A DNA stretch of 64,000 bases from a virus (IMGVR_UViG_3300035181_002522:100332-164331); one strand, 5' to 3'. Shown: positions 42,931 to 64,000, numbered from the stretch's first letter. Made by a program: numbers and translations. Notes: a model not told the origin generated them from the letters alone.

Positions 42931-43767
42931 ATGAAATTAGAAGATTTATTAGAAGCTCCAATAAAAAAGAGCTCTCAAAAGAATAGTTCAGTGAAAACTG
43001 AGGTTCAATCCTATATGTTTCAGACTAAAGAAGAGATTGAAGCATGGATGAAACAGCATTATATTAAGGGAATGGTTAGCAGAGAGTTAACCATCCATGT
43101 GACAGATACGCGGGTAACAATCTCTAGATTTGGAGTTAAAAAAGAAGACATTTTAATTCAGCATAATGGTAAGTGGGTTTTACCTGTTCAATTCTATATA
43201 GTGAGTAAATTTGACATTAGTGGTTTAAGTGTTGGTAGCTTTATTGGTTTTCCATATGTTATCAGCGAGGAATTAAAGATAGCCGATAGTGTAATCTCTG
43301 ATTTTACTGGCGTCCCAAAGGTCTGCCCAAAGATTGATGGTGATTCTCTAGAAAGAATGACTAGCTTTAGCGGATTAGAAGAAACTAATTGCAAATCACT
43401 TTACTGGAACTGCAAATCTGGAATAGACAATCTGCAAGGTTTACCTGAAACCCTACAAGAACTTTACCTAGGCATCAATAATTCTACAGTTGACATTGCT
43501 GAAATATTAGCTCAATGCCCAAAGCTCTATCAACTTAAAATTGCCGCTATGGAAGGTTCAAAGATTAAAAATGGACTTTCTTCAATCTTCAAGCACGAGC
43601 CTTTTAAAAATCCAAACACTGATATTTGGTTGAGGTCTGACCATTATACAAATGCTCAAAATAAAGAAGCAAATGAAATAATTAATGGTCATCTCCATGG
43701 CGATCACAATATGTCAAAATGTCAAACTGACTTATTTAAAGCGGGCTTTAAAGAACTTTGCCGTTAA
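42931..43767 (+). CDS. LRR-like array paralogue 1
   Basis: Degenerate LRRs; C-terminus CQTDLFKAGFKELCR; TAAATA upstream. Confidence 0.85.
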   Translation: MKLEDLLEAPIKKSSQKNSSVKTEVQSYMFQTKEEIEAWMKQHYIKGMVSRELTIHVTDTRVTISRFGVKKEDILIQHNGKWVLPVQFYIVSKFDISGLSVGSFIGFPYVISEELKIADSVISDFTGVPKVCPKIDGDSLERMTSFSGLEETNCKSLYWNCKSGIDNLQGLPETLQELYLGINNSTVDIAEILAQCPKLYQLKIAAMEGSKIKNGLSSIFKHEPFKNPNTDIWLRSDHYTNAQNKEANEIINGHLHGDHNMSKCQTDLFKAGFKELCR

Positions 43768-44513
43768 CCATTTACTGTTGTAGTACTATACACATCGGTG
43801 AATGGTGATAATGTTCCATCAGCTCCAACTTCATATGTTCCAAAATTGTCTAAACTACCAAGTCGAATATTGATTTGTTCGACGTAGTTCTTTTTTAGGT
43901 CCATTGGTGGAGTTAGATAAATTGGCATTACAAAATTTAATGACCAAACTAGAATTCTTTTATCCTGGCCAATCGGATAATTTTCTTCATTGTTGATTCC
44001 AGTTAGTTCAATATGAGTAATTTTAGTCCAATCAAATGGCGCATCAGATATTTGAATTTGAAGTACTGGGTCAAAGATTAACAATATCTGTTCTAATATC
44101 TGGTGTAGTTGGTCAGTGTTGCTTGCATAAATTGAAAGTTCAAAATTGGCATTATACGGAATTGGCATAATACGATATACGACTGACAAATCATCAGGAA
44201 ATACCCCATTGGTTGGAAAGTATGTTTTGCGATCAATAACTCCAATACCTTTTCTTCTTTCTGGCGCAAGTTCAATTCCTTGCAAATTTGCTGACATTGA
44301 TGGAAGAGCAATTGGTGAATTTTGAGTATTTCCTTGAATAAGAGCTGAAACAACTCTATCTCTATTACCAACTAAACATGGCACTGGCTGAGCGATTATA
44401 TTTCCATCTTCTCCTTTGCCAGTTCTAACTTGCATACCCGCAAATACAGAAACAAACTGCAAAATATAAGCTCTGAGCTGGCGGTCATAAAAATATTCTC
44501 CTGTAAATGCCAT
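43764..44513 (-). CDS. Tail sheath stabiliser / terminator (T4 gp15-like)
   Basis: YFYDRQLR...MPIPYNANFEL...QILEQILLIFDP. Confidence 0.85.
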   Translation of the reverse strand: MAFTGEYFYDRQLRAYILQFVSVFAGMQVRTGKGEDGNIIAQPVPCLVGNRDRVVSALIQGNTQNSPIALPSMSANLQGIELAPERRKGIGVIDRKTYFPTNGVFPDDLSVVYRIMPIPYNANFELSIYASNTDQLHQILEQILLIFDPVLQIQISDAPFDWTKITHIELTGINNEENYPIGQDKRILVWSLNFVMPIYLTPPMDLKKNYVEQINIRLGSLDNFGTYEVGADGTLSPFTDVYSTTTVNG

Positions 44514-44562
44514 ATTTCGATTTTCCTTTACAAATAATTGGAAATTATTAGAAAAAAGACTA

Positions 44563-46341: not shown

Positions 46342-46343
46342 TA

Positions 46344-47002
46344 TTAATTCTCATTGTTAATTTCATAAAAACATTTCCAATTTTTATGATGGTTGCGTTT
46401 GCCGTTAGCTACGGCACACATTGCACTTGTATTTAATTTTTCTTTTTTACAAAAATCAGAAATACCTTTTATAATAAATTCAGCACCATTTAGATCAATA
46501 ATTTTATAAGTTTTTTGAAGACTTTGTTTATGTTTTAATCTATTGTCCGGAGAATTAAATTTAGAATTTGGATCATTCCAGTAACTTTTTATCATATTTT
46601 TCCAATTTTCTTGGTATTCACTAGAATTATAAATTGATTGATCATTTTCCCAATGAAGTTTCATTGCCTCTGACAATTTGGCTTTTACATCTAAGGTCAT
46701 GCTTTCTTGAATAGTCTTTTTTAACTTTGTTCTATACTCTTCGGAATTATAAGCATGATCTTTATTTTCTCGATGTTTTTGTTTATATTCAGCAGATTGA
46801 TATTTGGTATTTTAAAGTGATGTTGTGTCCAAGCTCTTTTGCCATGACCTTTACCAATATAGTAAGGAGTTCCAGCTTTTGCTGTATTACTATCGTTTTG
46901 GCGAACATACGCATAAATATAAAAAATAGGCTGTCCATTATCGTGCTTTTGATTCTTAAAGCAAAGACCAAGAGCTTGATAAATACTTGATGACGCCGTC
47001 AT
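46344..47002 (-). pseudogene. Disrupted GIY-YIG homing endonuclease
   Basis: FYIYAYVR...PYYIGKG in one frame; NUMOD1-like tail (FCKKEKLNTSAM...HKNWKC) in another. Confidence 0.7.
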
Positions 47003-47054
47003 TATTATCACTTTGAAAATATAATAATGATATTTATTGATTACCTGTAAGGAA

Positions 47055-47768
47055 ATGAAATTGTATGAGGTGCTTGACCAGTCCCATGATGTTAATAGGT
47101 GATTAGCACGATATGAAAGAAAAATACATAATTTAACATCTGAAACTTTTGAGCCAGGAGTATTCAATGTCAATGAAGTCTCATTTACTAACATTGCAGT
47201 ATTCAAAAAACCAATTCCAGTTCATTTTCGTACTGTTAAAATTTATTCAGTTCGTGAATGTCCAAACGTTACTAGTCTAACCCAACTGAATGTAGAAAAA
47301 ACAGATTCATTAAGTGTGCAAAATTCTGGCATTACTGATTGTGAAGGTTGTCCGGAAGCTAATATCTTAAGTTTAGATTATAATTTTAAGTTAAATTCTC
47401 TAAAAGGAATAACTCCAACTGTGACAACTTTGAATTTATTGAACTGTACTGCATTACATACGATCGACGCCGATTTGCCAAATTGTACAACTCTTAGGCT
47501 ATCTTTTTCTGGTATTGAAACGCTTTCAGGAATTCATAAACATTGTCCTAAGCTTGAATCAATCAATTTAACTTGGTATGATAATCTTAAAGCTGGATTG
47601 CTTGGATTACTAAGAATTCCAAGTTTAAAATTAGTTGAAGCAAGTACTGGCCCTGATGAGCTACTTATTGCAGTTGGACTTATCAATAAACACTTAAAAG
47701 ATAAAAATATTGGTGCGTGTCAAACAGATTTATTTAAAAGCGGATTAAAAGAATATGCTAAGCTTTAA
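47055..47768 (+). pseudogene. LRR array paralogue 2 with in-frame TGA at codon 16
   Basis: AAGGA RBS, ATG 47055, TGA 47100-47102, then open frame aligning with paralogue 3; C-terminus CQTDLFKSGLKEYAKL. Confidence 0.75.
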
Positions 47769-48516
47769 AGAGTATTTAAAAGAGGCAGAATTGACAAGAG
47801 ATGAAGTCTTACAATGGGCTCATGAAAATGATAATAAATTTCCACAGTCTATTATTACTGACGTTAATGTTGGGAAGGAACCACCTTTTTTAATTAGTGT
47901 TCACACAGTAAATTTTAATAATTTAAAAATATTCAAAAAGCCATTACCAGTTCAATTTGGTTACATTAAATTCTATTTGGCTAATGAGTGCGAATATCTA
48001 ACTGATTTAAGTCAATTGAGAGTACAAACGGCTGATTCACTTCAAATAAATGGAACTGCCATAACATCATTCAAAAATTGCCCAGAGATATTTGCCTTAA
48101 GAGCTCAAAAACTAAGAAAATTAACTACATTAGAAGGTATTTCTAAAGAAGTTAATAAAGTTGAATTAATTGGCGCTGAAAACTTAACATCAATTGATGA
48201 TGAAATGCCAAATGTAACAAGCTTTTTAGCTCCAGTCTGTGGGATTACTTCGCTAAAAGACATTCATAAGTATTTGCCAAAATTAGAAGTATTACAAATA
48301 AATTCTAATCCAATTGTTGCATCTATTTTGGGGTTATTGAAATTACAAAATCTACGAATGATGATATTTGAAAATTCTCCCAATTCACCAGCACCAAATG
48401 ATTTTATTGCGGCAATGAGAATAGTTAATGAATTTGTTATGGCTAAAAATTACAATATCTCAGAATGTCAAACCCGCTTGTTTAAGGCAGGTTTGAAAGA
48501 CTTTGCAAAACTTTAA
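47755..48516 (+). CDS. LRR array paralogue 3
   Basis: MLSFKEYLKE start; LRRs; C-terminus CQTRLFKAGLKDFAKL. Confidence 0.88.
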   Translation: MLSFKEYLKEAELTRDEVLQWAHENDNKFPQSIITDVNVGKEPPFLISVHTVNFNNLKIFKKPLPVQFGYIKFYLANECEYLTDLSQLRVQTADSLQINGTAITSFKNCPEIFALRAQKLRKLTTLEGISKEVNKVELIGAENLTSIDDEMPNVTSFLAPVCGITSLKDIHKYLPKLEVLQINSNPIVASILGLLKLQNLRMMIFENSPNSPAPNDFIAAMRIVNEFVMAKNYNISECQTRLFKAGLKDFAKL

Positions 48517-50060: not shown

Positions 50061-50153
50061 AATATAACCCTTAAAACATTAATTAATAGAGTTATTTATG
50101 AGGCCAAAATAAATAACTGTAGTTAACTCACACGCAGTATAGGACTCCTAACA

Positions 50154-51311
50154 ATGAAAATAGCAGAATTATTCGAAAATTATGAAACTGAAACCTTAGA
50201 AGAACACCTTGGCAACTTAGCCGTTGTTGATAAAAAATTCTTAAAGCTTTTAAAAACAGCGGTTGAATATAAGTACAATGGCAATAATGCACAAATGCAA
50301 AGCAAGTATGTCCAGCGTATGCCAGTTTACTTAGGTTCAAAATCAAAAGTCGATTCATACGAAACGAAATCTGGAGCTGAAGCTTATCGTCAATTAGTTG
50401 AAGATGATACCGCAAAAGCTATCGTCATCAACCATGATACTGAACAGGTTTTTGTGGCATTCAAAATTCCAGCTGACAATAGTAGAGAAAATTTTGCTTA
50501 TCTTTGGACTGCCGACATTGTTCATTTGCTTGGTCACTCAGAGCATAATGAACAATTTGAAGAAGCTAAAGCCAAGCTAGAAAAAGCAAAAATTAAAGCT
50601 TATGATAGTCCAACTGATGGTATAGTTCGTGGGAATGCTAAAGAGCTCTACGCAGCATTGACAACAATTTTTAAACTTTCTAAAGAGCTTGGACATAAGA
50701 CCGTTGATTTACATGTTATCCATGTTGATGAAGAAAGAGCTGCTACTAAAATACAGCGAGCTGCACGTAAGAAAACCCCAAACTGGTTTGAGCAAATTCC
50801 AGCTGAAATTCCAGTAAGATTAAAAAAAGATAAAGAGTTTTGGAGCAAATATGCTAAAGATGCTTTACAGTCTCGTTTGATTGATTTTAAGACGAACAAT
50901 GCTAAGGAAGCAAATACCCCAGAAGAAATGTTTAAATTGATACAAAACCATGGGTTTTTGGATAGAATAAAAGTGAATGGTTTTGTGTACAGGGTTGATT
51001 CAAGTAATTTACAATTTGACAGATTGATTAAAGCAGCTCGTGGAACAGCGGAAGAAAAAAGCCGTTATAAAGATGATAATTATATCGAATATGGTATGGA
51101 TTATCTTAATTCTGAAAATGACATAAAACAAGCTAAAATTAAAAAGCAGCTTGAAATAATGACAAAAGGTGATAAAGACCGTATGAAACAGCTTGCTAGT
51201 CAATATTTACCACCTTACAAAATTAAAGTTTATTTAAAATTAGATAAAGCTTCTATCGTTGTTGACCATGTAGATGCTGATAAGTGGATTCGCAAATTAA
51301 ATATCAAATAA
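50154..51311 (+). CDS. Late protein, possible internal head protein
   Basis: TAAATA at 50110; MKIAELFE...TLEE propeptide-like N-terminus. Confidence 0.7.
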   Translation: MKIAELFENYETETLEEHLGNLAVVDKKFLKLLKTAVEYKYNGNNAQMQSKYVQRMPVYLGSKSKVDSYETKSGAEAYRQLVEDDTAKAIVINHDTEQVFVAFKIPADNSRENFAYLWTADIVHLLGHSEHNEQFEEAKAKLEKAKIKAYDSPTDGIVRGNAKELYAALTTIFKLSKELGHKTVDLHVIHVDEERAATKIQRAARKKTPNWFEQIPAEIPVRLKKDKEFWSKYAKDALQSRLIDFKTNNAKEANTPEEMFKLIQNHGFLDRIKVNGFVYRVDSSNLQFDRLIKAARGTAEEKSRYKDDNYIEYGMDYLNSENDIKQAKIKKQLEIMTKGDKDRMKQLASQYLPPYKIKVYLKLDKASIVVDHVDADKWIRKLNIK

Positions 51312-51890
51312 TAAATTTAAACAAAAACCTTTATATCTAAATTTCCATGCTTAAGAATTGTTCAGCAAACAGATTTTTCTTGGGAGTTAAGTACACTTAT
51401 TGTCGCCGATAAAGTATTAAAAGACTATTTCGGCGACAATATTGAAATCATAATTAATGATGAAATGACTTACATTTACGTAGATTATTTCTTTGATGAA
51501 TTTAACTGTTCGTCAAAGAAATTAATCTCCATTGAAATACAGGTACAAGAATTATTGAGATTGAACAACTGTTCATCTTCTATTATTTTCAATGGCATGC
51601 CGGCTGAAAAGTTTAAATTGGATTCTTGTCGAATGCTTTCTATACACATACCGGATGAGCCAACGTCAATTAGTAAATTGAACGAATGTAACGTACTAAC
51701 CATTATTAATGCTCATCAGATATTAGGTGGTGTTTTAAGCATCTTGAAGATTAAAAATTTAGTCTCATTTACTGGTAATCGAACTGATTTTCCATGGATT
51801 GAAATTATTCAGCAATATGATTCATCAACAATTTCACAAGCGTAAACTGCTCTCTTTAATACTAGGTTTGGAAAGTTAATAACTCTATGA
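51310..51890 (+). pseudogene. Array paralogue 4 with nonsense codon in the C-terminal tag
   Basis: GGVLSILKIKNL motif; ISQA*TALFNTRFGKLITL* with TAA at the conserved Gln; start lost. Confidence 0.7.
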
Positions 51891-52084
51891 CTATAACCTA
51901 TGTCCCGTTCTGTTTCATGCCAGGGCATACAATTAATGCAATTGTAAGGGCAAAGAACTTTTATGTTGAAGGTGAGAAACTTGAAGAGCTAATCCAATTG
52001 TTTAATGAAGCAAATGATTTTGAAGTTCCTAAATTAGGTAAAAGTTACTTGGTGCCAGTAGATGACGACCTTAAACCAACTTAG
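51887..52084 (+). CDS. Small LysM-like protein
   Basis: PGHTINAIV...N...PKLGKSYLVP. Confidence 0.45.
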   Translation: MTITYVPFCFMPGHTINAIVRAKNFYVEGEKLEELIQLFNEANDFEVPKLGKSYLVPVDDDLKPT

Positions 52085-52736
52085 TCATGTAGATTATCCG
52101 TGTCTTAATATTATTTTTTCGTTGACTGAACGAAATTGTATATCTTATACTATGCAACCGTTGGGCGCAATCATTAAATTGATTGATGAAACTCTAAAAA
52201 AAGAAATTCCTAACTATAAATTCTCCGTTGGATTTGATGGTTTAGATAATTTAAGAGTTTTATATCATTTGACTCGTGAAAATGAGTGTGATTCTATCAA
52301 TTTGACTGATGTGCGAGCTGAACTTGTCAATGTGATTTATAAATTAATGGAAACATTATTTGTTGATGTAGCTGATTTTACGATTAAAGATACTTACATT
52401 TCTATGTTTTCTATTGTTCAATATAAAATTAACTATGAAAAAATAGTTTTCTTTGCTTGTGGTATGCACGGAATTTCACTTTCTGGTTTGCATAATTTTA
52501 TCGACTGCACCGTGCTTAAAATAATAACTCCTGGTAATGTCACTGGCGGAGTTTTATCGTTGTTGAAAATACCAAGCCTTCAAGCAATGTCTTTCGACAT
52601 CTTCAATTATGATGATAATCCCGAACTTATGCAGTGGACTTCTATCATTTCTTCAGAGCTTGCAGGAGAAAAAAATGTGGCAAGAGCTCAAACTCAATTG
52701 CTACGCGCTGGTCTAAAAAAGTTCGCTACTCTATAA
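52062..52736 (+). CDS. Array paralogue 5
   Basis: ISLSGLH, GGVLSLLKI, C-terminus AQTQLLRAGLKKFATL. Confidence 0.85.
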   Translation: MTTLNQLSHVDYPCLNIIFSLTERNCISYTMQPLGAIIKLIDETLKKEIPNYKFSVGFDGLDNLRVLYHLTRENECDSINLTDVRAELVNVIYKLMETLFVDVADFTIKDTYISMFSIVQYKINYEKIVFFACGMHGISLSGLHNFIDCTVLKIITPGNVTGGVLSLLKIPSLQAMSFDIFNYDDNPELMQWTSIISSELAGEKNVARAQTQLLRAGLKKFATL

Positions 52737-52793: not shown

Positions 52794-53450
52794 ATGTCAA
52801 TCTCATTCAAACAATTTTTAACTGAAGCTGGCGAGCCAGAGGTATCTTTAACAATACATTTTGCTCCAGGCGAATCAAAATTCAAAATACTAACAACAGA
52901 AAAAGATGAGCGTAGAGATGAACTTGAAGCTGCCATTAGTCAACTCGGCTTTAAAGTTGATGTCAACTATTTTGGTGCTGACGCTATTGAATTAAGTGTA
53001 TTAATGCTTAAAGAAGAATTTTATACTGATCCAGTTAAAATACAAGCCTTCATTAATGAAATAAAACAATATTGCGAATTGCATTTTGGCTCATCAAAAA
53101 GACCTATCATTAATGATGAATCTTCTTGGTCAATTTTAAAATTTACGACACTTCCTTCTAAATTAGTCGTCTGGGATTATATTGAAGTTGCTCCACACAT
53201 CACTAAATCAATATCTTTGTCTGGTATATATAAAGTACTTCAACCAAAAGAAACACTACTTATTGCACATTTACATGCAATTGATGATTCTATATTAGGA
53301 CTGTTTAAATTTGATAAAGAAATTGACATTTATCTAAATGGTAATAGTACCTGGTCTACAATAGTTAGAAAATATCTAAAAACTCGAGATATTACAAAAT
53401 GTCAAACCGAACTCATGAAAAATGGACTTAAACAATATGCAAAACTTTAG
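52794..53450 (+). CDS. Array paralogue 6
   Basis: MSISFKQFLTE; C-terminus CQTELMKNGLKQYAKL. Confidence 0.88.
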   Translation: MSISFKQFLTEAGEPEVSLTIHFAPGESKFKILTTEKDERRDELEAAISQLGFKVDVNYFGADAIELSVLMLKEEFYTDPVKIQAFINEIKQYCELHFGSSKRPIINDESSWSILKFTTLPSKLVVWDYIEVAPHITKSISLSGIYKVLQPKETLLIAHLHAIDDSILGLFKFDKEIDIYLNGNSTWSTIVRKYLKTRDITKCQTELMKNGLKQYAKL

Positions 53451-54123
53451 GGAATATTACGAATCAGAAGTAGAATATGGAAAGCTCTTTTATAGCATCC
53501 AATTCTTTGTTAATGTCAAATTACAATCTTTAACTGCTGCTGCCGGACAACGTGAAAATTTAGCAGTAATAAGAAACCAAATTAAAAATGCCCTTAAAGA
53601 GGTTGGTTTAGCAAGAGATACTTTTAGCTCGAATGATACTAATAAGCAATCTTTTTTTACACTAGATGTAAAGTTAGAAAATAAAAAATGGTCAAAGGCT
53701 GAATTACTAGCAGTTAAAGAGAAAACAATTAAGGCAATAAAATCTGTTCCGCAATTCAAAGACAAAGAATTTGAATTTGATAGCGACTGTATAGTTGTCA
53801 CTGGGACTTTGCATCCTAGTTCTAGTATTGAATGGGATAATGTTGATTTGGTTTATACTACTAATGAAATTTCTTTAGTTAATATTGACAAACAACTTAA
53901 AAATGTCAAACACTTGAAGATATTTTTATCATCATCTGTTTCCGTATTAGAAGGTGGTTTAGGTATCTTAAAGATGACATCTTTAAAGAGCTTCATTATT
54001 GAACTGCCAAGACCACCAGAATGGTTGAAAATAATAAAAGCACATTTTGACGCTGATAAAAATATTAGTAAAGCGCAAACTGAATTATTTAAAAACGGAT
54101 TTAAAGAATATGCAAAGCTTTAA
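53437..54123 (+). CDS. Array paralogue 7
   Basis: MQNFREYYESE; C-terminus AQTELFKNGFKEYAKL; 14-nt overlap with previous gene. Confidence 0.88.
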   Translation: MQNFREYYESEVEYGKLFYSIQFFVNVKLQSLTAAAGQRENLAVIRNQIKNALKEVGLARDTFSSNDTNKQSFFTLDVKLENKKWSKAELLAVKEKTIKAIKSVPQFKDKEFEFDSDCIVVTGTLHPSSSIEWDNVDLVYTTNEISLVNIDKQLKNVKHLKIFLSSSVSVLEGGLGILKMTSLKSFIIELPRPPEWLKIIKAHFDADKNISKAQTELFKNGFKEYAKL

Positions 54124-54751
54124 GCAATTCCTACAAGAAGAAATGAAACCAAGTGTCGTATTATTTTTAGAGCTAAGTATTAATCTTGCACTCTCAGAAA
54201 ATGCTAGTAAGTGGGAAAAAATGATTAAGACTTTATTGACTCCCAAATTCAAAGTTCAAAAAGTAACACTAACTGGTCAAAATAATAGTGTGGTGGTGCT
54301 CTTAGATGAAAGCAATAAGCATTTTACATCAGCAGAAGTTTATAAAATAGCAAAAGAAGTAAAAGAAGAATTAATTTATGATGCATCTATTGGCAGTAAA
54401 TTTCCAGAAGCTCCACTCTCTGAAATTAAACTAATAGTCAAAAATACTTTACCAAAAAATGTGACGTTAGAATTTAATACAATCTTATTGAATTTTCATG
54501 AAGCAACAAATGTTTCGTTATTGGGAATTCATGATCAATTAAAAACTGACAATGTTCACATAATTGATGTATCATCTGTTACTTCAGGTGGTTTAGGCTT
54601 AATGAAATTTAAAAAGCTGACGATTAACACATCTGGAAAGCAACCTAGTTGGGTTACCATTATAGAAAACTGCCATAAAGAAGGCAAATCGATTGCAGCG
54701 TGTCAAACAGAATTAATGAAAAATGGATTTAAAGAATATGCAAAGCTTTAA
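54110..54751 (+). CDS. Array paralogue 8
   Basis: MQSFKQFLQEE; C-terminus CQTELMKNGFKEYAKL; 14-nt overlap. Confidence 0.88.
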   Translation: MQSFKQFLQEEMKPSVVLFLELSINLALSENASKWEKMIKTLLTPKFKVQKVTLTGQNNSVVVLLDESNKHFTSAEVYKIAKEVKEELIYDASIGSKFPEAPLSEIKLIVKNTLPKNVTLEFNTILLNFHEATNVSLLGIHDQLKTDNVHIIDVSSVTSGGLGLMKFKKLTINTSGKQPSWVTIIENCHKEGKSIAACQTELMKNGFKEYAKL

Positions 54752-55499
54752 GCAATTTCTTGTAGAAAATAAAATGCCAGTTAATTCAGCGCCTTGGCAT
54801 TTAAAAACTGAAGAAGAAGTTGCTAAATTTGTCATTGATAGAAATTTACATGAAGATGGTTTCCATTCTACTTTTATTCGAAATGAAGATGGCTCATATG
54901 ACATAAAGCAATCTATAACTTTAATGCTCAATGATAATTATTTTGTAGACATTCCAGGTGGTGGGAAAGGTTTACCTTTCCCTTTTCATAGATGTCGCGA
55001 TTTTTATATTGGTGGCAATATCACAGATTTGACTGGTTTCCCTCAACACTTAGATAAAATCACCACGGTACTAATCAATGCGCCAAAGTTGAAATCATTA
55101 AAGCCTGTCCAAATTAAAACTCCAATTAACAGCATATCATTTAACTGCAATCACCTTGAAGAGTTTGGCGCATCAATTGCTATGGTTGACAGTGTTTATT
55201 TTACTGCAAATTTGATACAATTAGCTACAATGGATATTATAAAAGGTTTTACTTGCATAAATAAATCAGTTACGTTTAGCAATGAACCAGCATTCGAATC
55301 ATTTATTAAACATACTCTTACTTGGTGTAAATTAAAAGACTCGTCTGGTCATCGACCAGCATTTCATACTCTTGGCATTGCTGGCTCTACAGATGCATTT
55401 AGTGCACTTGATGTTATTAATGCGAATAGAGATAAAAACATTTCACAGCTTCAAACTTTCTTATTAAAAAACGGTCTTAAAGAATATACAAACTTATAA
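54738..55499 (+). CDS. Array paralogue 9
   Basis: MQSFKQFLVE; C-terminus LQTFLLKNGLKEYTNL; 14-nt overlap. Confidence 0.88.
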   Translation: MQSFKQFLVENKMPVNSAPWHLKTEEEVAKFVIDRNLHEDGFHSTFIRNEDGSYDIKQSITLMLNDNYFVDIPGGGKGLPFPFHRCRDFYIGGNITDLTGFPQHLDKITTVLINAPKLKSLKPVQIKTPINSISFNCNHLEEFGASIAMVDSVYFTANLIQLATMDIIKGFTCINKSVTFSNEPAFESFIKHTLTWCKLKDSSGHRPAFHTLGIAGSTDAFSALDVINANRDKNISQLQTFLLKNGLKEYTNL

Positions 55500-55718
55500 T
55501 GTTGACAAATAAAGATGAGATAAAGCAGTACTTAACCCTCCTAAAGGCTGGTCATTAGGTTTTCTTCGAATCGAAGGTACCTTTCTTCTCAAAAAGACTT
55601 CATCTAAAGCAAGTGTCGATCTGCAAAGAGCAACGATCATTTAATATGTGGACGTAATGTTGGTAAATGTCAATTAGACCTTTTTAAAAATGGCTTGAAA
55701 CAATTCGCTTCATTATAA
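55500..55718 (+). pseudogene. Array paralogue 10 remnant
   Basis: Manual translation ends RNVGKCQLDLFKNGLKQFASL*. Confidence 0.7.
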
Positions 55719-55757: not shown

Positions 55758-57479
55758 ATGGAACTGAATCAATTAAGACAAATCACCGGCGTATCTTTCG
55801 CCCCAACCGTTCAACAACCAATCATTGTATTTGAAGACATTGAGCTGCCAACTGATTTAGTTGAAGTTCTCAGCGACTTTGCAATTGAGCTCCAAGCTAT
55901 TAGCATGTTAACTGAAGATATTCAATTAAGTTATAAGCAGATTGACCAGTTATTTCAAGATATCGAAAGTTATTTAAATAGTGATGATACCCGCGTTTCA
56001 AATAAAACTTTTTGGGGTCGTGGCATTGAAGCAATTAAGCGCAAGTTAAAGACTTTATTCGATTTAAAAGACAAAGCTAAAGTTGGACCAGTTAAAAATT
56101 ATGATAAAGTTAAAGTTGAAGCTGATAGTAAGATTGAAAAAGCTAATTTGCCACAAGAACAGCAAAATATGGCTCTTAAAACAATAGACACTCTTTATAA
56201 AGCTGGAAAACTTCACCCGTTTGCTCAAAAGTTTACAACTCAGCTCATTGGTGGTTTAGTAGCTTCTACGACATCGACAAATGCAGTAAGAAAGATTGTT
56301 ATTCCTGCCATTACTAATCAAACAAGAAAATTATTAAATGATGAATCTGGTTTAAATGGTTTAATTGAGCTTTTATTTACCGAAGCTGAAGGTCAATTGT
56401 CTGATACTTTGACAACTTTTGATGAAGTACACGCTAAATCAACAATAAAAGAAGCATTTGAAGATAACACACAATTAGCAAAAGCGATTCATAAGTATTC
56501 TAAGAAAATTGCTATTGCAACTGAAAAAGTAAAAGATAAAGTCGTTATTTCATCAATCTTTGCCTATCAGTCAGGTGATAAAATGTGGGAAGCAGCTAGA
56601 AAGAAAGCAGAACGTTCTGATAATAAGTTCTTTGTTTGGAAAAATGGCGTCTATTACGCAGGTGATGTGCAAGACATTATGGAATTAACCTTTGAACAGG
56701 TTGCTGAAAAGGTTAAAGGAATGACTGGTTCAATTTCAGAATCAATTGAACTAAATGAAAACTTTATCACGGACTTCTTTGGAAAGCTTAAAGATAAAGT
56801 TAAAAGTTGGCAAGCTAAAAAAGGTGATACCAACAATTTTTCTAGCATCATTACGTATGATAAGATTGAAAGAGCTTGGGTTAAAGCAGGTAAACCTCGT
56901 GACCTGACTGAATTACAAGATTTTTTAAGTGGTTATTTGACTAAAGCTTACGGGTCAAGTCATCATCTTGCAATTCATACAATGTTAGATAATTTCTTTG
57001 AGGAACTCCGAGATAAACTTGATGGAAAACAGCCTAATAAAGCTAATGCTGAAGAATCAAGTACAACTGATAAAGAAACTGATTCAACTGATAGTGAGCA
57101 AGAGACAACATCTACTCCGGCTGGCGCAAGCAAAGAGTTTCACCCAAGTGAAAATGATGAGGCAACTGATTCTTCCGCAACAGAAGAACCGGCTGACGTA
57201 GAATTGTCTAATGATGAAAAATCAATCTTAAAGCAGCTTTTTTATGCAATTAAGAAAGGTGCGGTTGATAAAACTTTAGCTCAAAATCCTCACAAACAAA
57301 AAGTGCTTATGAAAGCTTTACCTAAACTTTACGCAAAGCATGGAGTAGAGCTAAAAGAAGATATAAGTCAATTCAGCAAAACAATGATATTAGAGACAAT
57401 AAGAACTAAAGCTGGGTTACCAAGTACCGAACATTCTAAGCTGTTAGCAATCTTAGAAAGAGAAGTAAAATTCTTTTAG
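55758..57479 (+). CDS. Large late protein, possible internal head protein
   Basis: TATAAATA at 55714; several L/I-x-E sites (LTE, IKE, LNE, LKE); acidic linker. Confidence 0.7.
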   Translation: MELNQLRQITGVSFAPTVQQPIIVFEDIELPTDLVEVLSDFAIELQAISMLTEDIQLSYKQIDQLFQDIESYLNSDDTRVSNKTFWGRGIEAIKRKLKTLFDLKDKAKVGPVKNYDKVKVEADSKIEKANLPQEQQNMALKTIDTLYKAGKLHPFAQKFTTQLIGGLVASTTSTNAVRKIVIPAITNQTRKLLNDESGLNGLIELLFTEAEGQLSDTLTTFDEVHAKSTIKEAFEDNTQLAKAIHKYSKKIAIATEKVKDKVVISSIFAYQSGDKMWEAARKKAERSDNKFFVWKNGVYYAGDVQDIMELTFEQVAEKVKGMTGSISESIELNENFITDFFGKLKDKVKSWQAKKGDTNNFSSIITYDKIERAWVKAGKPRDLTELQDFLSGYLTKAYGSSHHLAIHTMLDNFFEELRDKLDGKQPNKANAEESSTTDKETDSTDSEQETTSTPAGASKEFHPSENDEATDSSATEEPADVELSNDEKSILKQLFYAIKKGAVDKTLAQNPHKQKVLMKALPKLYAKHGVELKEDISQFSKTMILETIRTKAGLPSTEHSKLLAILEREVKFF

Positions 57480-57802: not shown

Positions 57803-57827
57803 TATATCACAATTTAAGGAGAAAAAT

Positions 57828-58454: not shown

Positions 58455-58464
58455 ATTTGATAAT

Positions 58465-58488
58465 AAAGGCCCTTCATTGGGCCTTTAT
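58465..58488. terminator. Terminator hairpin
   Basis: TAAAGGCCC-TTCATT-GGGCCTTTA. Confidence 0.65.
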
Positions 58489-58534
58489 AGTATTCAAAGC
58501 ACGATGCATAAATAAACTAAAATAGGAGTTTTTT

Positions 58535-59686: not shown

Positions 59687-59687
59687 G

Positions 59688-60224
59688 ATGGCAAAAGGAA
59701 GATTTGTCCCAAAACACCCAGAAAAATATTTGGGAAATCCAAACAATATCATATTCAGAAGCTCTTGGGAGCTCTCATGTTGTAAATTTTTTGATAGCTC
59801 GAACGCCGTAACTCGTTGGGCTTCTGAAGAAATTGCGATACCATATGTCAGTCCGTTAGATGCCAGAATACATCGCTACTTTCCAGATTTTATCGCTAAG
59901 ATAACCGATTCTAGTGGAACGACCGACACTTGGTTAATTGAGGTTAAACCACTTCATCAAACTGATATGAAATATGCTAAAAATGTTCAACAAAAGATGG
60001 AGGTGGCAAAAAATGAAGCAAAGTGGAAAGCAGCAACAAACTTTGCTGCTTTAAATAATATGAAATTTAAAGTGCTTACTGAATTAGACATTTACGCTTT
60101 AGACCCTGATAGAGGAAAAGTAAAGCGAGCAAAACCTAGTAATGCGGCAAAAATTAAAGCTAGGAAGCCAAGAGCTAAAACGATAAAATCAACTACGGTT
60201 AGACCCAAGGAGAGTAAAAAATGA
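59688..60224 (+). CDS. Head completion nuclease (T4 gp4 / TnsA-like)
   Basis: GRFVPKHPEKYLG..IIFRSSWE; WASEEIAIPY; YFPDF; IEVKP; NEAKWKAA. Confidence 0.93.
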   Translation: MAKGRFVPKHPEKYLGNPNNIIFRSSWELSCCKFFDSSNAVTRWASEEIAIPYVSPLDARIHRYFPDFIAKITDSSGTTDTWLIEVKPLHQTDMKYAKNVQQKMEVAKNEAKWKAATNFAALNNMKFKVLTELDIYALDPDRGKVKRAKPSNAAKIKARKPRAKTIKSTTVRPKESKK

Positions 60225-60682
60225 CAACACTGACACACCCATTAGAAACTGTGTTTAATATAGCGCCAGGTTCAACAAAAAATTTACCTGCAGAGTATGA
60301 ATCCCAAAATCTTGCAGAATATACTGAGATTCCTGCTGAGGTAGTTGCCCAGGACCATAAGGATGACGCTGAGGACATTGATATTAATGATAAGATAGAA
60401 ACCATTTATGAATTTGCATTGACTGCCTATGAGAACCAGACCGCCTTTGCCGAGATAGCAGAACCACGCTATGCTGCTCGTAATGCTGAAGTAGCAGCTC
60501 AATACTTAAATGCAGCGTTAAGTGCGGTGGCATTGAAGTCAAGAAACAAGAGTGATAAGCGTAAAAGCAAGCAGTTTATTCCGTTTAACACGAACATCTC
60601 AAATAGCAATGTAGTTGTTACTGATCGAAACAGTATCATGCAAATGATCGCTGAAAAGAAAAAAATGCAAGAAGGTTCATAA
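60221..60682 (+). CDS. Probable terminase small subunit (T4 gp16-like)
   Basis: EPRYAARNAEVAAQYLNAA and NSNVVVTDRNSI; position after gp4. Confidence 0.55.
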   Translation: MTTLTHPLETVFNIAPGSTKNLPAEYESQNLAEYTEIPAEVVAQDHKDDAEDIDINDKIETIYEFALTAYENQTAFAEIAEPRYAARNAEVAAQYLNAALSAVALKSRNKSDKRKSKQFIPFNTNISNSNVVVTDRNSIMQMIAEKKKMQEGS

Positions 60683-61710
60683 TGATAAGCTTTAAACAAT
60701 TTTTAAATGGGGTTAAAGAACAAATGAAGATATGTAATTTATTTGAACAGGAAATAGTTTATCATAATGATATTACGGTTCCAAAGTCATGTAAGTCGTT
60801 GTTCGAGTTAGTAAATTTGTTTCCTGGCTATCAGCCCGGCTGCAAAGTTAGTGGTAACTTTTCTTGTCATGGCTGTACATCTTTGACATCTCTAGAAGGA
60901 GCACCTAGTTCAGTTGGCGGTAACTTTTCTTGTTGGGATTGTACATCTCTGACATCTCTAGAAGGAGCTCCTAGCTCAGTTGGCGGTAACTTTTATTGCC
61001 ATCGCTGTACATCTCTGACATCTCTAGAAGGAGCACCTAGTTCAGTTAGTGGTGACTTTTTTTGTGGTGATTGTTCATCTTTGACATCTCTAAAAGGAGC
61101 TCCTAGTTCAGTTGGCGGTGACTTTTTTTGTGGTGATTGTTCATCTTTGACATCTCTAAAAGGAGCTCCTAGCTCAGTTGGCGGTAACTTTTCTTGCGCT
61201 GACTGTACATCTTTGACATCTCTAGAAGGAGCACCTAGTTCGATTAGTGGTGACTTTTCTTGTTATGGCTGTACATCTTTGACTTCTCTAGAAGGAGCTC
61301 CTAGTTCAGTTAGTGGTAACTTTTTTTGTTATGGCTGTAGATCTCTGACATCTCTAAAAGGAGCTCCTAGTTCAGTTAGTGGTAACTTTTCTTGTGCTAA
61401 CTGTACATCTTTGATATCTCTAGAAGGAGCACCTAGTTCAGTTGGCGGTAACTTTTCTTGTCACGGCTGTAGATCTCTGACATCTCTAGAAGGAGCTCCT
61501 AGTTCGATTGGCGGTGACTTTTCTTGTTATGGCTGTACATCTTTGAGAAAGCCAATCTTAAGTTTACTCAAAATAAAAAAATTAAAAAAAATAATCTACG
61601 ACAATGCGGATGTGCAAGCTATAGTAAATGGGCATATGCAAGACAAAAATATCGCAGCGTGTCAAACTGAATTAATGAAGAACGGATTTAAGGAATATGC
61701 AAAATTATGA
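60682..61710 (+). CDS. Tandem 22-aa LRR protein, copy 1 (11 CxxC units)
   Basis: GNFSCxxCTSLTSLEGAPSSVG repeats; MISFKQFL start; array C-terminal tag. Confidence 0.92.
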   Translation: MISFKQFLNGVKEQMKICNLFEQEIVYHNDITVPKSCKSLFELVNLFPGYQPGCKVSGNFSCHGCTSLTSLEGAPSSVGGNFSCWDCTSLTSLEGAPSSVGGNFYCHRCTSLTSLEGAPSSVSGDFFCGDCSSLTSLKGAPSSVGGDFFCGDCSSLTSLKGAPSSVGGNFSCADCTSLTSLEGAPSSISGDFSCYGCTSLTSLEGAPSSVSGNFFCYGCRSLTSLKGAPSSVSGNFSCANCTSLISLEGAPSSVGGNFSCHGCRSLTSLEGAPSSIGGDFSCYGCTSLRKPILSLLKIKKLKKIIYDNADVQAIVNGHMQDKNIAACQTELMKNGFKEYAKL

Positions 61711-62064
61711 TGAATACCAAAGCTGATATGACACATGATGAATATTTCACATTACCCGTTAGTAATCATTGTTGGTAATTTTGATAACAGCAACATGGTA
61801 GAAGCTGAAGAAGTGTATATCTCTAAAATAAAAATTAATTTACAAGGAATACAAAAGATGTTAAGATGTTCTAAGATTAAAATTTTGGACGCAAGAACAA
61901 TTGAAGCTGGAGCTCTATCGCTTCTAAAAATTCAAGGTTCACAACATATTTCATTTGGTGGAAGTACAAATAATAGACCAGAATGAACTAAGATTATTAT
62001 GAATCACTTGAATGTAGTGGTATGTCAAATTGAATTACTAAAAATGGGGTTAAAGAACAAATGA
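61707..62064 (+). pseudogene. Decayed array paralogue, spacer copy 1
   Basis: INLQGIQK, AGALSLLKI and CQIELLKMGLK fragments with frameshift and stops. Confidence 0.7.
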
Positions 62065-63518
62065 AGATATGTAATTTATTTGAACAGGAAATAGTTTATC
62101 ATAATGATATTACGGTTCCAAAGTTATGTAAGTCATTGTTCGAGTTAGTAAATTTGTTTCCTGGCTATCAGCCCGGCTGCAAAGTTAGTGGTAACTTTTC
62201 TTGTTATAACTGTACATCTTTGACATCTCTAGAAGGAGCTCCTAGTTCAGTTGGTGGTAACTTTTCTTGTTGGGATTGTACATCTCTGACATCTCTAGAA
62301 GGAGCACCTAGTTCAGTTGGCGGTAACTTTTCTTGTTATAACTGTACATCTTTAACATCTCTAGAAGGAGCTCCTAGTTCGATTAGTGGTAACTTTTCTT
62401 GTTATAACTGTACATCTTTAACATCTCTAGAAGGAGCTCCTAGTTCGATTAGTGGTAACTTTTCTTGTTGGGATTGTACATCTCTGACATCTCTAGAAGG
62501 AGCACCTAGTTCAGTTAGTGGTAACTTTTCTTGTGCTAACTGTACATCTCTGACATCTCTAGAAGGAGCACCTAGTTCAGTTAGTGGTGACTTTTTTTGT
62601 TATGGCTGTACATCTTTAACATCTCTAGAAGGAGCACCTAGTTCAGTTGGCGGTAACTTTTCTTGTTATAACTGTACATCTTTAACATCTCTAGAAGGAG
62701 CTCCTAGCTCAGTTGGCGGTAACTTTTCTTGTTATAACTGTACATCTTTAACATCTCTAGAAGGAGCTCCTAGTTCGATTAGTGGTAACTTTTCTTGTTG
62801 GGATTGTACATCTCTGACATCTCTAGAAGGAGCACCTAGCTCAGTTGGTGGTAACTTTTCTTGTTATGACTGTAGATCTCTGACATCTCTAGAAGGAGCT
62901 CCTAGTTCAGTTGGTGGTAACTTTTTTTGTTATGGCTGTACATCTTTAACATCTCTAGAAGGAGCACCTAGCTCAGTTAGTGGTAACTTTTCTTGTGCTA
63001 ACTGTACATCTTTGACATCTCTAGAAGGAGCACCTAGTTCGATTAGTGGTAACTTTTCTTGTTGGGATTGTACATCTCTGACATCTCTGACATCTCTAGA
63101 AGGAGCACCTAGTTCGCTTGGTGGTGACTTTTCTTGTCATGGCTGTACATCTCTGACATCTCTAGAAGGAGCACCTAGCTTGGTTGGCGGTGACTTTTCT
63201 TGTCATGGCTGTACATCTTTGACATCTCTAGAAGGAGCACCTAGCTTGGTTGGCGGTGACTTTTCTTGTCATGGCTGTACATCTTTGACATCTCTAGAAG
63301 GAACTCCTAGTTCGATTGGTGGTGACTTTTCTTGTCATGGCTGTACATCTTTGAGAAAGCCAATCTTACGTTTACTCAAAATAAAAAAATTAAAAAAAAT
63401 AATCTACGACAATGCAGATGTGCAAGCTATAGTAAATAGGCATATGCAAGACAAAAATATCGCAGCGTGTCAAACTGAATTAATGAAGAACGGATTTAAG
63501 GAATATGCAAAATTATGA
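62061..63518 (+). CDS. Tandem 22-aa LRR protein, copy 2 (18 CxxC units)
   Basis: Caps nearly identical to copy 1; seven extra repeats plus a TSL duplication. Confidence 0.92.
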   Translation: MKICNLFEQEIVYHNDITVPKLCKSLFELVNLFPGYQPGCKVSGNFSCYNCTSLTSLEGAPSSVGGNFSCWDCTSLTSLEGAPSSVGGNFSCYNCTSLTSLEGAPSSISGNFSCYNCTSLTSLEGAPSSISGNFSCWDCTSLTSLEGAPSSVSGNFSCANCTSLTSLEGAPSSVSGDFFCYGCTSLTSLEGAPSSVGGNFSCYNCTSLTSLEGAPSSVGGNFSCYNCTSLTSLEGAPSSISGNFSCWDCTSLTSLEGAPSSVGGNFSCYDCRSLTSLEGAPSSVGGNFFCYGCTSLTSLEGAPSSVSGNFSCANCTSLTSLEGAPSSISGNFSCWDCTSLTSLTSLEGAPSSLGGDFSCHGCTSLTSLEGAPSLVGGDFSCHGCTSLTSLEGAPSLVGGDFSCHGCTSLTSLEGTPSSIGGDFSCHGCTSLRKPILRLLKIKKLKKIIYDNADVQAIVNRHMQDKNIAACQTELMKNGFKEYAKL

Positions 63519-63812
63519 TGAATACCAAAGCTGATATGACACATGATGAATATTTCACATTACCCGTTAGTAATCATTGTTGGTAATTTTGATAACAGCA
63601 ACATGGTAGAAGCTGAAGCTGAAGCTGAAGCTGAAGCTGAAGCTGGAGCTCTATCGCTTCTAAAAATTCAAGGTTCACCACATATTTCATTTGGTGGAAG
63701 TACAAATAATAGACCAGAATGAACTAAGATTATTATGAATCACTTGAATGGCAACAAGAATGTAGTGGTATGTCAAACTGAATTACTAAAAATGGGGTTA
63801 AAGAACAAATGA
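63515..63812 (+). pseudogene. Decayed array paralogue, spacer copy 2, with (GAAGCT)6
   Basis: Near-identical to 61707-62064 apart from an internal replacement and a 9-nt indel. Confidence 0.7.
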
Positions 63813-64000
63813 AGATATGTAATTTATTTGAACAGGAAATAGTTTATCATAATGATATTATTGTTCCAAAGTCATGTAAGTCATTGTTCGAGTTAGTAAA
63901 TTTGTTTCCTGGCTATCAGCCCGGCTGCAAAGTTAGTGGTAACTTTTCTTGTTATAACTGTACATCTTTGACATCTCTAGAAGGAGCTCCTAGTTCAGTT
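63809..64000 (+). CDS. Tandem LRR protein, copy 3 (partial)
   Basis: MKICNLFEQEIVYHNDII... runs off the window. Confidence 0.88.
   Translation, partial: MKICNLFEQEIVYHNDIIVPKSCKSLFELVNLFPGYQPGCKVSGNFSCYNCTSLTSLEGAPSSV

What the first reader, a model, noticed from the sequence alone, without database searches (positions are those of the whole stretch)
42931..64000. Candidate novel system: diversified array of LRR proteins with capsid-targeting-like N-termini and a common C-terminal tag
Seen: about 15 genes or relics, all on the + strand among tail and neck genes. They have divergent bodies but end in (N/D/S)I..CQT(E/D)L.K.G(F/L)K(E/Q)(Y/F)AKL, preceded by a GG.L.LLKI-type motif (the last copy runs off the window). 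N-termini are MxSFK(Q/E)(F/Y)LxE or MK(I/L)xxL(F/L)E, and several blocks follow TAAATA. Established: T4 internal proteins use an N-terminal capsid-targeting sequence (MKTYQEFIAE type), are cleaved after Glu and injected; IPI* blocks GmrSD. Inference: a head-packaged repertoire of variable binders, possibly anti-defence, with the tag serving as docking signal or LRR cap.
Basis: partly seen in the sequence, partly recalled or inferred. Interest (0 to 1): 0.9.

Follow-up and report, generated by a model that had tools for sequence, protein, structure and literature searches.

The report
Head-targeted LRR protein family in jumbo phage
A giant T4-related phage carries about 15 copies of a previously undescribed gene family whose proteins start with the same short signal that phage T4 uses to load proteins into its head, so they are probably packaged and injected with the DNA; what they do in the host is unknown.

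Summary
The window is the last 64 kb of a 164-kb fragment of a roughly 350-kb T4-core jumbo myovirus whose nearest isolate is Ralstonia phage RsoM2USA. Ten + strand ORFs end in the ...NI..CQTEL.K.G(F/L)KEYAKL module. There are also four relics and one copy cut by the contig end.

The N-termini match the T4 capsid-targeting signals read from the T4 genome (IPII/III MKTYQEFIAE, IPI MKTFKEF, Alt MELITELFDE). They keep the residues shown experimentally to matter: aromatic at 4 and 7, L at 8, E at 10.

- The contig encodes a gp21-type prohead protease, a scaffold and a gp23 capsid protein.
- The same N-termini sit on unrelated untagged proteins, so the signal is portable.
- In RsoM2USA, a tagged member (ORF89) and an untagged protein with the same N-terminus (ORF132) are among the ten major virion bands in published work.
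- Folds show an LRR solenoid (Z about 16 to internalin, YopM and IpaH) ending in a three-helix C-terminal module.
- The tag matches 1079 metagenomic clusters and no Pfam, PHROG or NCBIfam family.
- Tags are uniform within a genome but differ between orthologues (net basic here, strongly acidic in a syntenic relative).

Head packaging is well supported but not shown for this phage. An anti-defence role is untested.

The parts
42931..43767 (+). Member A (278 aa): MKL-type N-terminus, LRR body, degenerate tag. Transcribed divergently from the sheath gene.
   Evidence: HMM E 8e-22. AATAAATA lies 46 nt upstream. Its orthologue in the syntenic relative L009 shares 52% identity in the body.
47103..47768 (+). 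Member B: a paralogue of C whose 5' end and targeting signal were lost. The only possible start is GTG at 47316.
   Evidence: The open frame from 47103 aligns with the body of C but has no ATG or signal. The GIY-YIG gene on the - strand overlaps it.
47755..48516 (+). Member C (253 aa): IP-type signal MLSFKEYLKE, LRR solenoid, three-helix C-terminal module.
   Evidence: AF2 pLDDT 93. VIA Z 14-16 to internalins, YopM, IpaH and SDS22. Relatives P0001-P0004.
50154..51311 (+). 385-aa basic protein with an MKI-type N-terminus and no tag. Conserved in the same slot in the relative.
   Evidence: 39% identity to the 441-aa protein of L009. AATAAATA upstream.
51465..51845 (+). Relic member: keeps the GG.L.LLKI segment and lacks the last helices.
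   Evidence: HMM E 1.7e-4; translation.
52062..52736 (+). Member D (224 aa): has the tag but no recognisable N-terminal signal.
52794..53450 (+). Member E (218 aa), N-terminus MSISFKQFLTE.
   Evidence: ATTAAATA upstream.
53437..54123 (+). Member F (228 aa). Its ATG lies inside the YAKL codons of E.
54110..54751 (+). Member G (213 aa): flexible signal, ferredoxin-like domain, three-turn LRR-like segment, three-helix module.
   Evidence: AF2 pLDDT 83.6, above 95 for the C-terminal 80 residues. Fold searches.
54738..55499 (+). Member H (253 aa), N-terminus MQSFKQFLVE.
   Evidence: Its orthologue in L009 shares 28% identity in the body.
55608..55715 (+). Relic consisting of the tag only.
   Evidence: HMM E 3e-9.
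60682..61710 (+). Member I (342 aa): an IP-type signal fused in front of an MKI-type signal, 11 units of a 22-aa Cys-containing LRR, then the tag.
61735..62061 (+). Frameshifted remnant of a member (83-aa ORF plus a tag relic). The relic runs in frame into J.
   Evidence: HMM hits at 61732-61983 and 61987-62061; sequence.
62061..63518 (+). Member J (485 aa), 18 LRR units, MKI-type signal.
   Evidence: LRR_5 hit below the Pfam cut-off.
63543..63809 (+). Second copy of the remnant plus tag relic.
63809..64000 (+). Member K, cut by the contig end.
   Evidence: The window ends where the contig ends.

Best explanation
These genes form a multigene family of late-expressed proteins that are loaded into the prohead of a T4-core jumbo myovirus. 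Each protein has four modules: (1) a roughly 10-residue N-terminal capsid-targeting signal of the T4 internal-protein type (M-x-S-F-K-Q-F-L-x-E) or the T4 Alt type (M-K-I-x-E-L-F-E), ending in the L/I-x-E site of the gp21-type prohead protease; (2) a highly variable body, either a small alpha/beta domain or a long LRR solenoid; (3) a last LRR turn (GG.L.LLKI); and (4) a conserved three-helix C-terminal module, the 'tag'. Inferred mechanism: the signal binds the scaffolding core during prohead assembly, the protease removes it, and the mature protein stays in the head with the DNA and enters the cell at infection. There the variable LRR or body surface would bind a host or phage target. The C-terminal module at least caps the solenoid. 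Because it is uniform within a genome and differs between genomes, it probably also contacts one common partner, which has not been identified. Shown here: the sequence architecture, the LRR fold, the match to the T4 signals, the presence of the protease, scaffold and capsid genes, and the late-gene context. Taken from the literature: virion presence of a homologue. Inferred: packaging, cleavage and injection in this phage, and any function in the host.
For: 1. The signal matches T4. The T4 record gives IPII/IPIII MKTYQEFIAE, IPI MKTFKEF and Alt MELITELFDE. The review PMC9026906 reports that the first 10 residues of IPIII suffice for packaging, that residues 4 and 7 govern targeting and 8 and 10 govern processing, and that gp21 cuts after L/I-x-E. 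Among 127 full-length representatives of the family, 48 are IP-type (F at position 4 in 46/48, F/Y at 7 in 48/48, L at 8 in 44/48, E at 10 in 38/48) and 57 are MKI-type (E at 5 in 50/57, L at 6 in 44/57, E at 8 in 42/57).
2. The machinery is present. Peptidase_S77 (gp21) scores 71.8 bits and Gp23 scores 312 bits, and a gp22-like acidic scaffold and a portal are on the same contig.
3. The signal is portable. On this contig it also heads a GNAT acetyltransferase and several other untagged proteins. In RsoM2USA it heads about 25 ORFs.
4. Virion evidence exists for a relative. RsoM2USA ORF89 (28.56 kDa, tagged, MKTFKQFLSE) and ORF132 (76.62 kDa, MKTFKQFLNT, untagged) are two of the ten major virion bands identified by SDS-PAGE and LC-MS/MS in PMC8504454. 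The hypergeometric P for at least 2 of 10 is about 0.03.
5. The context is late. The same [A/C/T]ATAAATA motif at the same spacing precedes the sheath, gp13 and tube2 genes, member A and the 385-aa gene. The motif is depleted genome-wide. Members I-K follow the tube, gp4-like and TerS-like genes with overlapping stop and start codons.
6. The folds agree. C is an LRR solenoid (pLDDT 93; Z 14-16 to InlA/B, YopM, IpaH/SspH1 and SDS22). The first 10 residues are low-confidence in both models.
7. Evolution is fast. Orthologue bodies are 28-52% identical to the syntenic relative, against 72-82% for the neighbouring structural proteins. SNPs against 99.7%-identical contigs are 8 non-synonymous to 6 synonymous in family genes and 0 to 12 in structural genes (Fisher P 0.002).
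8. The tag is not homogenised at the DNA level. Only 58% of codons are identical where the residue is identical. Yet tags are genome-specific: net +1 to +3 here and -2 to -6 in L009, including in positional orthologues.
Against: There is no proteomic or N-terminal sequencing evidence for this phage. The RsoM2USA work identified bands cut from a gel, did not separate heads from tails and did not report processed N-termini. With only 10 bands the enrichment is modest (P 0.03-0.09, depending on which N-termini are counted). In tandem genes part of the N-terminal motif (M-Q-S-F-K) is encoded by the same bases as the YAKL-stop of the upstream gene, so some conservation there is forced. The motif does also occur where no tag lies upstream (E, I, and the untagged genes). 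About 15% of representatives, together with members B and D and several genes in L022, lack the signal. The mature proteins are mostly not small and basic like the T4 IPs (pI 4.6-8.9). The XacN1, PA5oct, CM1 and Turkey5 genomes gave no family hit, so the family is not a general feature of this phage group.
Confidence: 0.65

Rival explanations
1. The proteins are virion-associated but external. In this reading they are LRR adhesins or accessory fibres attached to the neck, tail or capsid surface, the C-terminal module is the anchor to a structural protein, and the N-terminal motif is unrelated to head targeting.
For: The genes lie among the sheath, gp15, gp13, tube and terminase genes. The best structural matches are bacterial surface or effector LRRs such as internalins. 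A common anchor would explain the genome-specific tag. The RsoM2USA proteomics did not distinguish head from tail.
Against: The N-termini reproduce the T4 head-targeting residues and protease site. They also occur on enzymes such as a GNAT, which are unlikely to be fibres. No fibre-like or trimeric coiled-coil features appear in the models.
Confidence: 0.13
2. The proteins are late, non-virion cytoplasmic proteins, for example assembly chaperones or host-takeover binders. The tag is only a solenoid cap, and the N-terminal similarity to the T4 signals is convergent or reflects the translation-initiation region.
For: The three helices follow directly on the last LRR turn and are modelled with pLDDT above 95 in the monomer, as expected of a cap. 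Part of the N-terminal motif is constrained by gene overlap. Some members lack the signal.
Against: A tagged homologue is an abundant virion protein. The motif is conserved at the protein level across more than 100 clusters below 50% identity, including genes with no overlap. Orthologue tags change in step with their genome rather than with their own body, which a purely structural cap does not require.
Confidence: 0.12
3. The array is mostly decaying duplicated DNA. In this reading the cassettes spread by recombination at their conserved junctions, sometimes alongside homing endonucleases, and contribute little to phage fitness.
For: There are four or five relics, one 5'-truncated copy and one copy without a signal. 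Near-identical junction repeats of about 40 nt flank gene G. Non-synonymous polymorphism is in excess. The contig breaks inside a recent tandem duplication.
Against: Positional orthologues are retained in a relative whose structural proteins are only 72-82% identical. The tag is held by purifying selection despite synonymous divergence. The family has 1079 clusters, and one member is an abundant virion protein.
Confidence: 0.05

Closest known systems
[quoted passage not shown]
   Same: The 10-residue N-terminal signal has an aromatic residue at 4 and 7, L/I at 8 and E at 10. The bodies are diverse and fast-evolving. A gp21-type protease is encoded in the genome. The genes sit in plastic loci and are expressed late.
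   Different: There is no body homology. The proteins are 210-485 aa, not 8-20 kDa, and mostly not basic. They carry LRR solenoids and a conserved C-terminal module that the T4 IPs lack. There are 10-15 copies per genome rather than three. Packaging has not been shown here.
T4 Alt (a head-packaged ADP-ribosyltransferase processed at both termini)
   Same: The MKI-type N-terminus (M-K-I-x-E-L-F-E) resembles Alt's MELITELFDE, including the I-x-E and L-F-(D)-E elements. Alt shows that a C-terminus can also be recognised by the head machinery.
   Different: There is no ADP-ribosyltransferase domain. L-x-E within the tag is not conserved across members, so C-terminal cleavage is not predicted.
Inner-body and ejection-protein paralogue families of phiKZ, 201phi2-1 and SPN3US
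   Same: These are also jumbo phages with many paralogous head-internal proteins that are processed by a gp21-related protease after Glu and ejected into the host.
   Different: They belong to a different phage lineage (chimallin or nucleus-forming versus T4-core). Their cleavage motif differs and they lack the T4-like 10-residue signal, LRRs and this C-terminal module.
Bacterial LRR effectors and adhesins (YopM, IpaH/SspH1 LRR domains, internalins)
   Same: They are the best structural matches (Z 14-16): short 20-22-residue bacterial-type LRRs used as protein-binding surfaces on delivered or surface proteins.
   Different: Pfam LRR hits fall below the cut-offs. The delivery signal and C-terminal module are different. 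The genes are phage-encoded.
Ralstonia phage RsoM2USA ORF88-90, ORF81-82 and an array at 189-214 kb (annotated as hypothetical proteins)
   Same: These are true family members, with the same N-termini, the same C-terminal module and a tandem arrangement. ORF89 is a published major virion protein.
   Different: They have their own tag flavour (...ELIDAGYE..AQL / F.LQ..LI.NGFE.Y.). They are not located in the neck and tail module. The family was not recognised as such in the paper.

Membership tests
T4-type capsid-targeted internal or ejected head proteins | An N-terminal signal of about 10 residues with the residues needed for targeting (4 and 7) and processing (8 and 10, L/I-x-E) | tested here: met
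   T4 sequences read from NC_000866. Functional residues taken from PMC9026906. Family profile; window genes.
T4-type capsid-targeted internal or ejected head proteins | The genome encodes a gp21-family prohead protease, a scaffolding core protein and a gp23-type capsid protein | tested here: met
   PF03420 at 71.8 bits and PF07068 at 312 bits; the head module was read in L014.
T4-type capsid-targeted internal or ejected head proteins | The protein is physically inside the mature head, its N-terminus is cleaved after Glu, and it is ejected with the DNA | not testable with these tools
   Only indirect evidence exists: RsoM2USA ORF89 and ORF132 are major virion bands. Head versus tail location and processing were not reported.
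T4-type capsid-targeted internal or ejected head proteins | Sequence homology of the mature part to IPI, IPII, IPIII or Alt | tested here: not met
   No Pfam, PHROG or NCBIfam hit. tblastn against 50,697 phage records found only RsoM2USA.
Leucine-rich repeat proteins | A right-handed solenoid of 20-24-residue repeats with an LxxLxL-type strand | tested here: met
   Member C has pLDDT 93 and Z 14-16 over 156-207 aligned residues to InlA/B, YopM, IpaH and SDS22. I and J have 11 and 18 regular 22-residue units. Pfam LRR_4 and LRR_5 hits fall below their cut-offs. D-H contain only about three LRR-like turns.
Known LRR C-terminal caps (LRRCT, SDS22-type LRRcap) | The C-terminal module is superimposable on, or homologous to, a described cap | tested here: inconclusive
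   No Pfam hit. The best LRR alignments mostly end at residues 215-233, before the last two helices, although a few extend to 246-253. The module was not folded on its own.
Diversified LRR receptor repertoires (VLR-like) | Variation concentrated on the concave face, generated by a dedicated diversification mechanism | not tested
   Only the variable C-x-x-C positions in the units of I and J were noted. No diversification machinery was sought.

The most novel reading that the evidence does not exclude
The family could be a two-signal cargo system. The N-terminal T4-type signal would load proteins into the prohead. The genome-specific C-terminal three-helix module would dock every paralogue to one phage-encoded (or host-encoded) partner, for example for ordered ejection or for delivery to a common site in the cell. 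The variable LRR or alpha/beta bodies would then form an injected repertoire of binders that neutralise host defence or takeover targets before any phage gene is expressed.
Probability: 0.2. Interest if true: 0.85.

Novelty: new variant of a known kind. Interest (0 to 1): 0.62.

Why it matters
T4's capsid-targeting sequence is the textbook way for a phage to pre-load proteins that act at the moment of infection. Known cargo is limited to a few small T-even proteins. This family would extend the principle to jumbo phages and to more than a thousand uncharacterised metagenomic protein clusters. It would add a new cargo architecture: an LRR binder plus a conserved C-terminal module. It also points to a tractable test system, because RsoM2USA is cultured and already has one member among its major virion proteins. 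If the cargo proves to be anti-defence binders, the family would be a large source of such proteins. The genome-specific tag would define a second recognition interface, which could matter both for phage biology and for engineering protein delivery by phages.

Tried and rejected
- **DNA and protein searches against isolated phages.** Megablast of 12.6 kb found nothing and tblastn of member F found nothing. Only a consensus-like representative reached RsoM2USA.
- **Family libraries.** Pfam, PHROGs and NCBIfam have no family for the tag, for the 385-aa protein or for the 573-aa protein.
- **Sigma-70 promoter and terminator scan.** Counts equalled those of shuffled sequence, so the scan was uninformative.
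- **Fold searches with model G.** These gave only generic ferredoxin/RRM-like matches (Foldseek E above 0.07, VIA Z 6.2 or below) and one 88-aa viral cluster matching the C-terminal module. The ESM Atlas feature search gave no usable hit.
- **Complex prediction.** Two copies of the C-terminal module (residues 120-213 of G) returned 'no answer' (score 0.02 against a mark of 0.42). This is not evidence either way.
- **Search for a charge-compensating partner.** Among the six proteins shared with the relative's 20-kb locus, only one 20-residue stretch of the 573-aa protein shifts by -6. Shifts of +7 also occur in the same protein, so this is not significant. The rest of the relative's genome could not be fetched.
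- **A universal neighbour.** The 573-aa and 385-aa proteins are absent from the RsoM2USA and L022 arrays at tblastn level.
- **Recent gene conversion as the cause of tag uniformity.** Rejected for all pairs except I/J, because the tags differ at synonymous sites.
- **A conserved cleavage site inside the tag.** L-K-E is present in some tags but missing in D, E and C and in RsoM2USA, so no C-terminal processing is predicted.
Full report
**Setting.** The window is the last 64 kb of a 164,331-bp IMG/VR virus contig that CheckV rates 46% complete, which implies a genome of about 350 kb. The tail sheath is closest to the jumbo myoviruses RsoM2USA (50% aa), CM1/RAS14, XacN1 and PA5oct. The flagged region holds T4-type late genes: sheath, gp15-like, a 592-aa virion protein, gp13-like adaptor, tube, a second tube-like protein, a gp4/TnsA-like head-completion protein and a small-terminase-like protein. 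Elsewhere the contig encodes a portal, a Peptidase_S77 (gp21) prohead protease, an acidic gp22-like scaffold and a Gp23 capsid protein.

**Observation.** A regex scan and a six-frame HMM scan of the whole contig find the C-terminal module only between window 42.9 and 64.0 kb, always on the + strand. Ten ORFs carry it (E 1e-20 to 1e-29). There are four relics and one copy cut by the contig end. Coordinates are in the parts list. Bodies D to H show no detectable similarity to one another (blastp E above 1e-3), whereas I and J are recent duplicates.

Several details were added here:
- Member B is a paralogue of C that lost its 5' end where a GIY-YIG/HNH endonuclease pair sits on the other strand.
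- D has no signal.
- In tandem pairs the next gene's ATG lies inside the upstream Y-A codons, so YAKL-stop and M-Q-S-F-K share bases.
- Junctions F/G and G/H are nearly identical for about 40 nt.
- Member I carries an IP-type signal joined, through a tag-like NGVKEQ stretch, to the MKI-type signal. The same DNA upstream of J and K is a tag relic in frame with the gene, which indicates recombination at the junctions.

**The N-terminus matches the T4 head-targeting signals.** I read the T4 proteins from NC_000866: IPII and IPIII begin MKTYQEFIAE, IPI begins MKTFKEF, and Alt begins MELITELFDE. The review PMC9026906 gives the experimental basis. The first 10 residues of IPIII suffice for packaging, residues 4 and 7 control targeting, residues 8 and 10 control processing, and gp21 cuts after L/I-x-E. 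Alt loses a short N-terminal propeptide and is also processed at its C-terminus.

A profile of the tag was searched against 1.84 billion representative proteins. It found 1079 clusters at E of 1e-3 or below and 73 at 1e-10 or below. In all but a couple of the 150 listed hits the match runs to within a residue of the C-terminus. Among the 127 listed representatives that are full length:
- 48 have the IP-type N-terminus (F at 4 in 46/48, F/Y at 7 in 48/48, L at 8 in 44/48, E at 10 in 38/48).
- 57 have the MKI-type (E at 5 in 50/57, L at 6 in 44/57, E at 8 in 42/57).
- 22 matched neither pattern, though three of these (P0009, P0021, P0044) carry the IP-type motif in a shifted register.

All four experimentally important positions of the T4 signal are therefore kept across sequences that share less than 50% identity.

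**The signal is portable.** On this contig it also heads four tandem untagged genes at contig 29561-32512 (one is a GNAT acetyltransferase), an 82-aa ORF, and the 385-aa protein at 50154. A scan of the complete RsoM2USA genome finds about 25 ORFs with one or the other N-terminus. These include a second, more divergent tagged array at 189-214 kb.

**Virion evidence from a cultured relative.** A consensus-like representative hit RsoM2USA. Its ORF88-90 and ORF81-82 have the same N-termini and the module. The RsoM2USA paper (PMC8504454) excised the ten most abundant virion bands and identified them by LC-MS/MS. They include ORF89 (28.57 kDa) and ORF132 (76.64 kDa). ORF89 is the tagged member that starts MKTFKQFLSE (computed mass 28.56 kDa). 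RsoM2USA_132 starts MKTFKQFLNT (76.62 kDa) and has no tag. Two of ten bands carrying a signal found on 13 of 486 ORFs gives P of about 0.03. This is the strongest support for packaging. It does not separate head from tail and does not report cleavage.

**Expression context.** The octamer [T/A]ATAAATA is depleted on the contig (28 copies against about 80 expected). It lies 15-60 nt upstream of many ORFs. CATAAATA, AATAAATA or TATAAATA sits about 46 nt before the sheath, gp13, tube2 and 573-aa genes, member A, the 385-aa gene and the untagged signal-bearing cluster. T4 late promoters are TATAAATA (established knowledge), so these are likely late promoters. I, J and K follow late genes with overlapping stop and start codons. 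In the related contig L021 an I/J-like gene is followed by five more members and then the large terminase. The array at the end of this contig therefore probably lies between the two terminase genes and continues beyond the window.

**Structure.** Member C folds with pLDDT 93 and pTM 0.89 as an LRR solenoid followed by three helices. VIA-align gives Z 14-16 to internalins A and B, YopM, IpaH/SspH1 and SDS22. Foldseek also ranks only LRR proteins. The best BFVD hits are paralogues from a single phage. Member G (pLDDT 83.6) has a low-confidence N-terminus, a ferredoxin-like domain, about three LRR-like turns and the same three helices at pLDDT above 95. Its N-domain has only generic matches. An 88-aa viral cluster matches the C-terminal module alone. 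The 'tag' is therefore the last LRR turn plus a helical cap. Whether it equals a known cap type is unresolved.

**Evolution.** A 314-kb ENA contig is syntenic. It has the sheath, an A orthologue, gp15, a 591-aa protein, four members, gp13, a 441-aa orthologue of the 385-aa protein, four more members, and a 579-aa orthologue of the 573-aa protein. After removing the first 12 and last 45 residues, A, C and H have clear orthologues there (52%, 41% and 28% identity). The neighbouring structural proteins are 72-82% identical.

The tags group by genome, not by orthology:
- Here the tag is ...CQTELMKNGFKEYAKL, with net +1 to +3 over the last 13 residues.
- There it is ...CQKELYDNDLDEYAEL, with net -2 to -6.
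- Mean identity over the last 14 residues is 7.3 and 9.5 within the two genomes and 4.7 between them.

Other contigs have their own flavours. Within this genome the tags differ at synonymous sites (58% identical codons at identical residues), so recent gene conversion is not the cause, except for I/J. The simplest reading is that the tags co-evolve with one common partner, which could be phage-encoded or host-encoded. No partner was found.

Against two contigs that are 99.7% identical to the window, family genes carry 8 non-synonymous and 6 synonymous SNPs, while structural genes carry 0 and 12 (P 0.002). This indicates relaxed or diversifying selection. The counts are too small to tell which.

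**Comparison and novelty.** Functionally the closest system is the T4 internal-protein and Alt cargo system, and after that the ejection-protein families of phiKZ-like phages. Membership as 'capsid-targeted cargo' is met for the signal and the machinery. It is untestable here for physical packaging. It is not met for body homology. No curated family covers the module. Four related isolated jumbo phages gave no hit. I found no paper describing the family. I rate it a new variant of a known kind.

**Limits.** Packaging, cleavage and injection are inferred for this phage. The anti-defence idea has no support beyond analogy with IPI*.

Noticed in passing
window 46344-47206 (- strand): An HNH-like ORF (118 aa) and a GIY-YIG-like ORF (161 aa) sit between the 592-aa virion gene and member B. 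The insertion coincides with the loss of B's 5' end. The syntenic relative L009 has no endonuclease there and has four intact members.
   Followed up: partly
contig G000:C1:29561-32512 (- strand) = L013:1562-4513, upstream of the window: Four tandem genes (105, 355, 222 and 301 aa) begin MKITELFE, MISFKQFL, MTSFKEYL and MTTFKEYL but lack the tag. The 222-aa protein is a GNAT acetyltransferase. AATAAATA lies 39 nt upstream of the first gene. They are candidate head-packaged enzymes, analogous to T4 Alt.
   Followed up: partly
window 29661-29909 (+): An 82-aa ORF starts MKIHELFEPS (MKI-type signal) and has no tag.
   Followed up: no
window 60682-64000: The contig ends inside a recent tandem duplication of [member remnant + tag relic + LRR gene]. 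I and J have 11 and 18 near-identical 22-residue units that vary mainly at the two residues between the cysteines (C-x-x-C) and at a few flanking positions. This repeat probably broke the assembly.
   Followed up: partly
window 55758-57479 (+): A 573-aa acidic, helical protein of no known family closes the central array and has an exact TATAAATA 44 nt upstream. It is conserved in the syntenic relative (45% identity). One 20-residue stretch (VYYAGDVQDIMELTFEQVAE) is 6 charge units more negative than in the relative, which is the direction expected of a tag partner. Swings of similar size in the other direction occur in the same protein.
   Followed up: partly
RsoM2USA MG752970.1 189177-214702 (+): A second array of at least 10 paralogues, each about 195-255 aa, starts MKL.EI and ends F(D/E).Q..LI.NGF.E(Y/F)(V/I/L). 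This is a divergent flavour of the same module that the first profile missed.
   Followed up: partly
L009:2224-4479 (+), the syntenic ENA contig: The relative encodes a 751-aa GAF-PAS-GGDEF-EAL protein (cyclic-di-GMP signalling domains) next to its sheath gene.
   Followed up: no
L022:982-4048 (+): In another array-bearing contig, two ATP-grasp proteins that match the PHROG for RimK-like ribosomal protein S6 modification (509 and 283 aa) lie just upstream of the members. Several members there lack the N-terminal signal.
   Followed up: no
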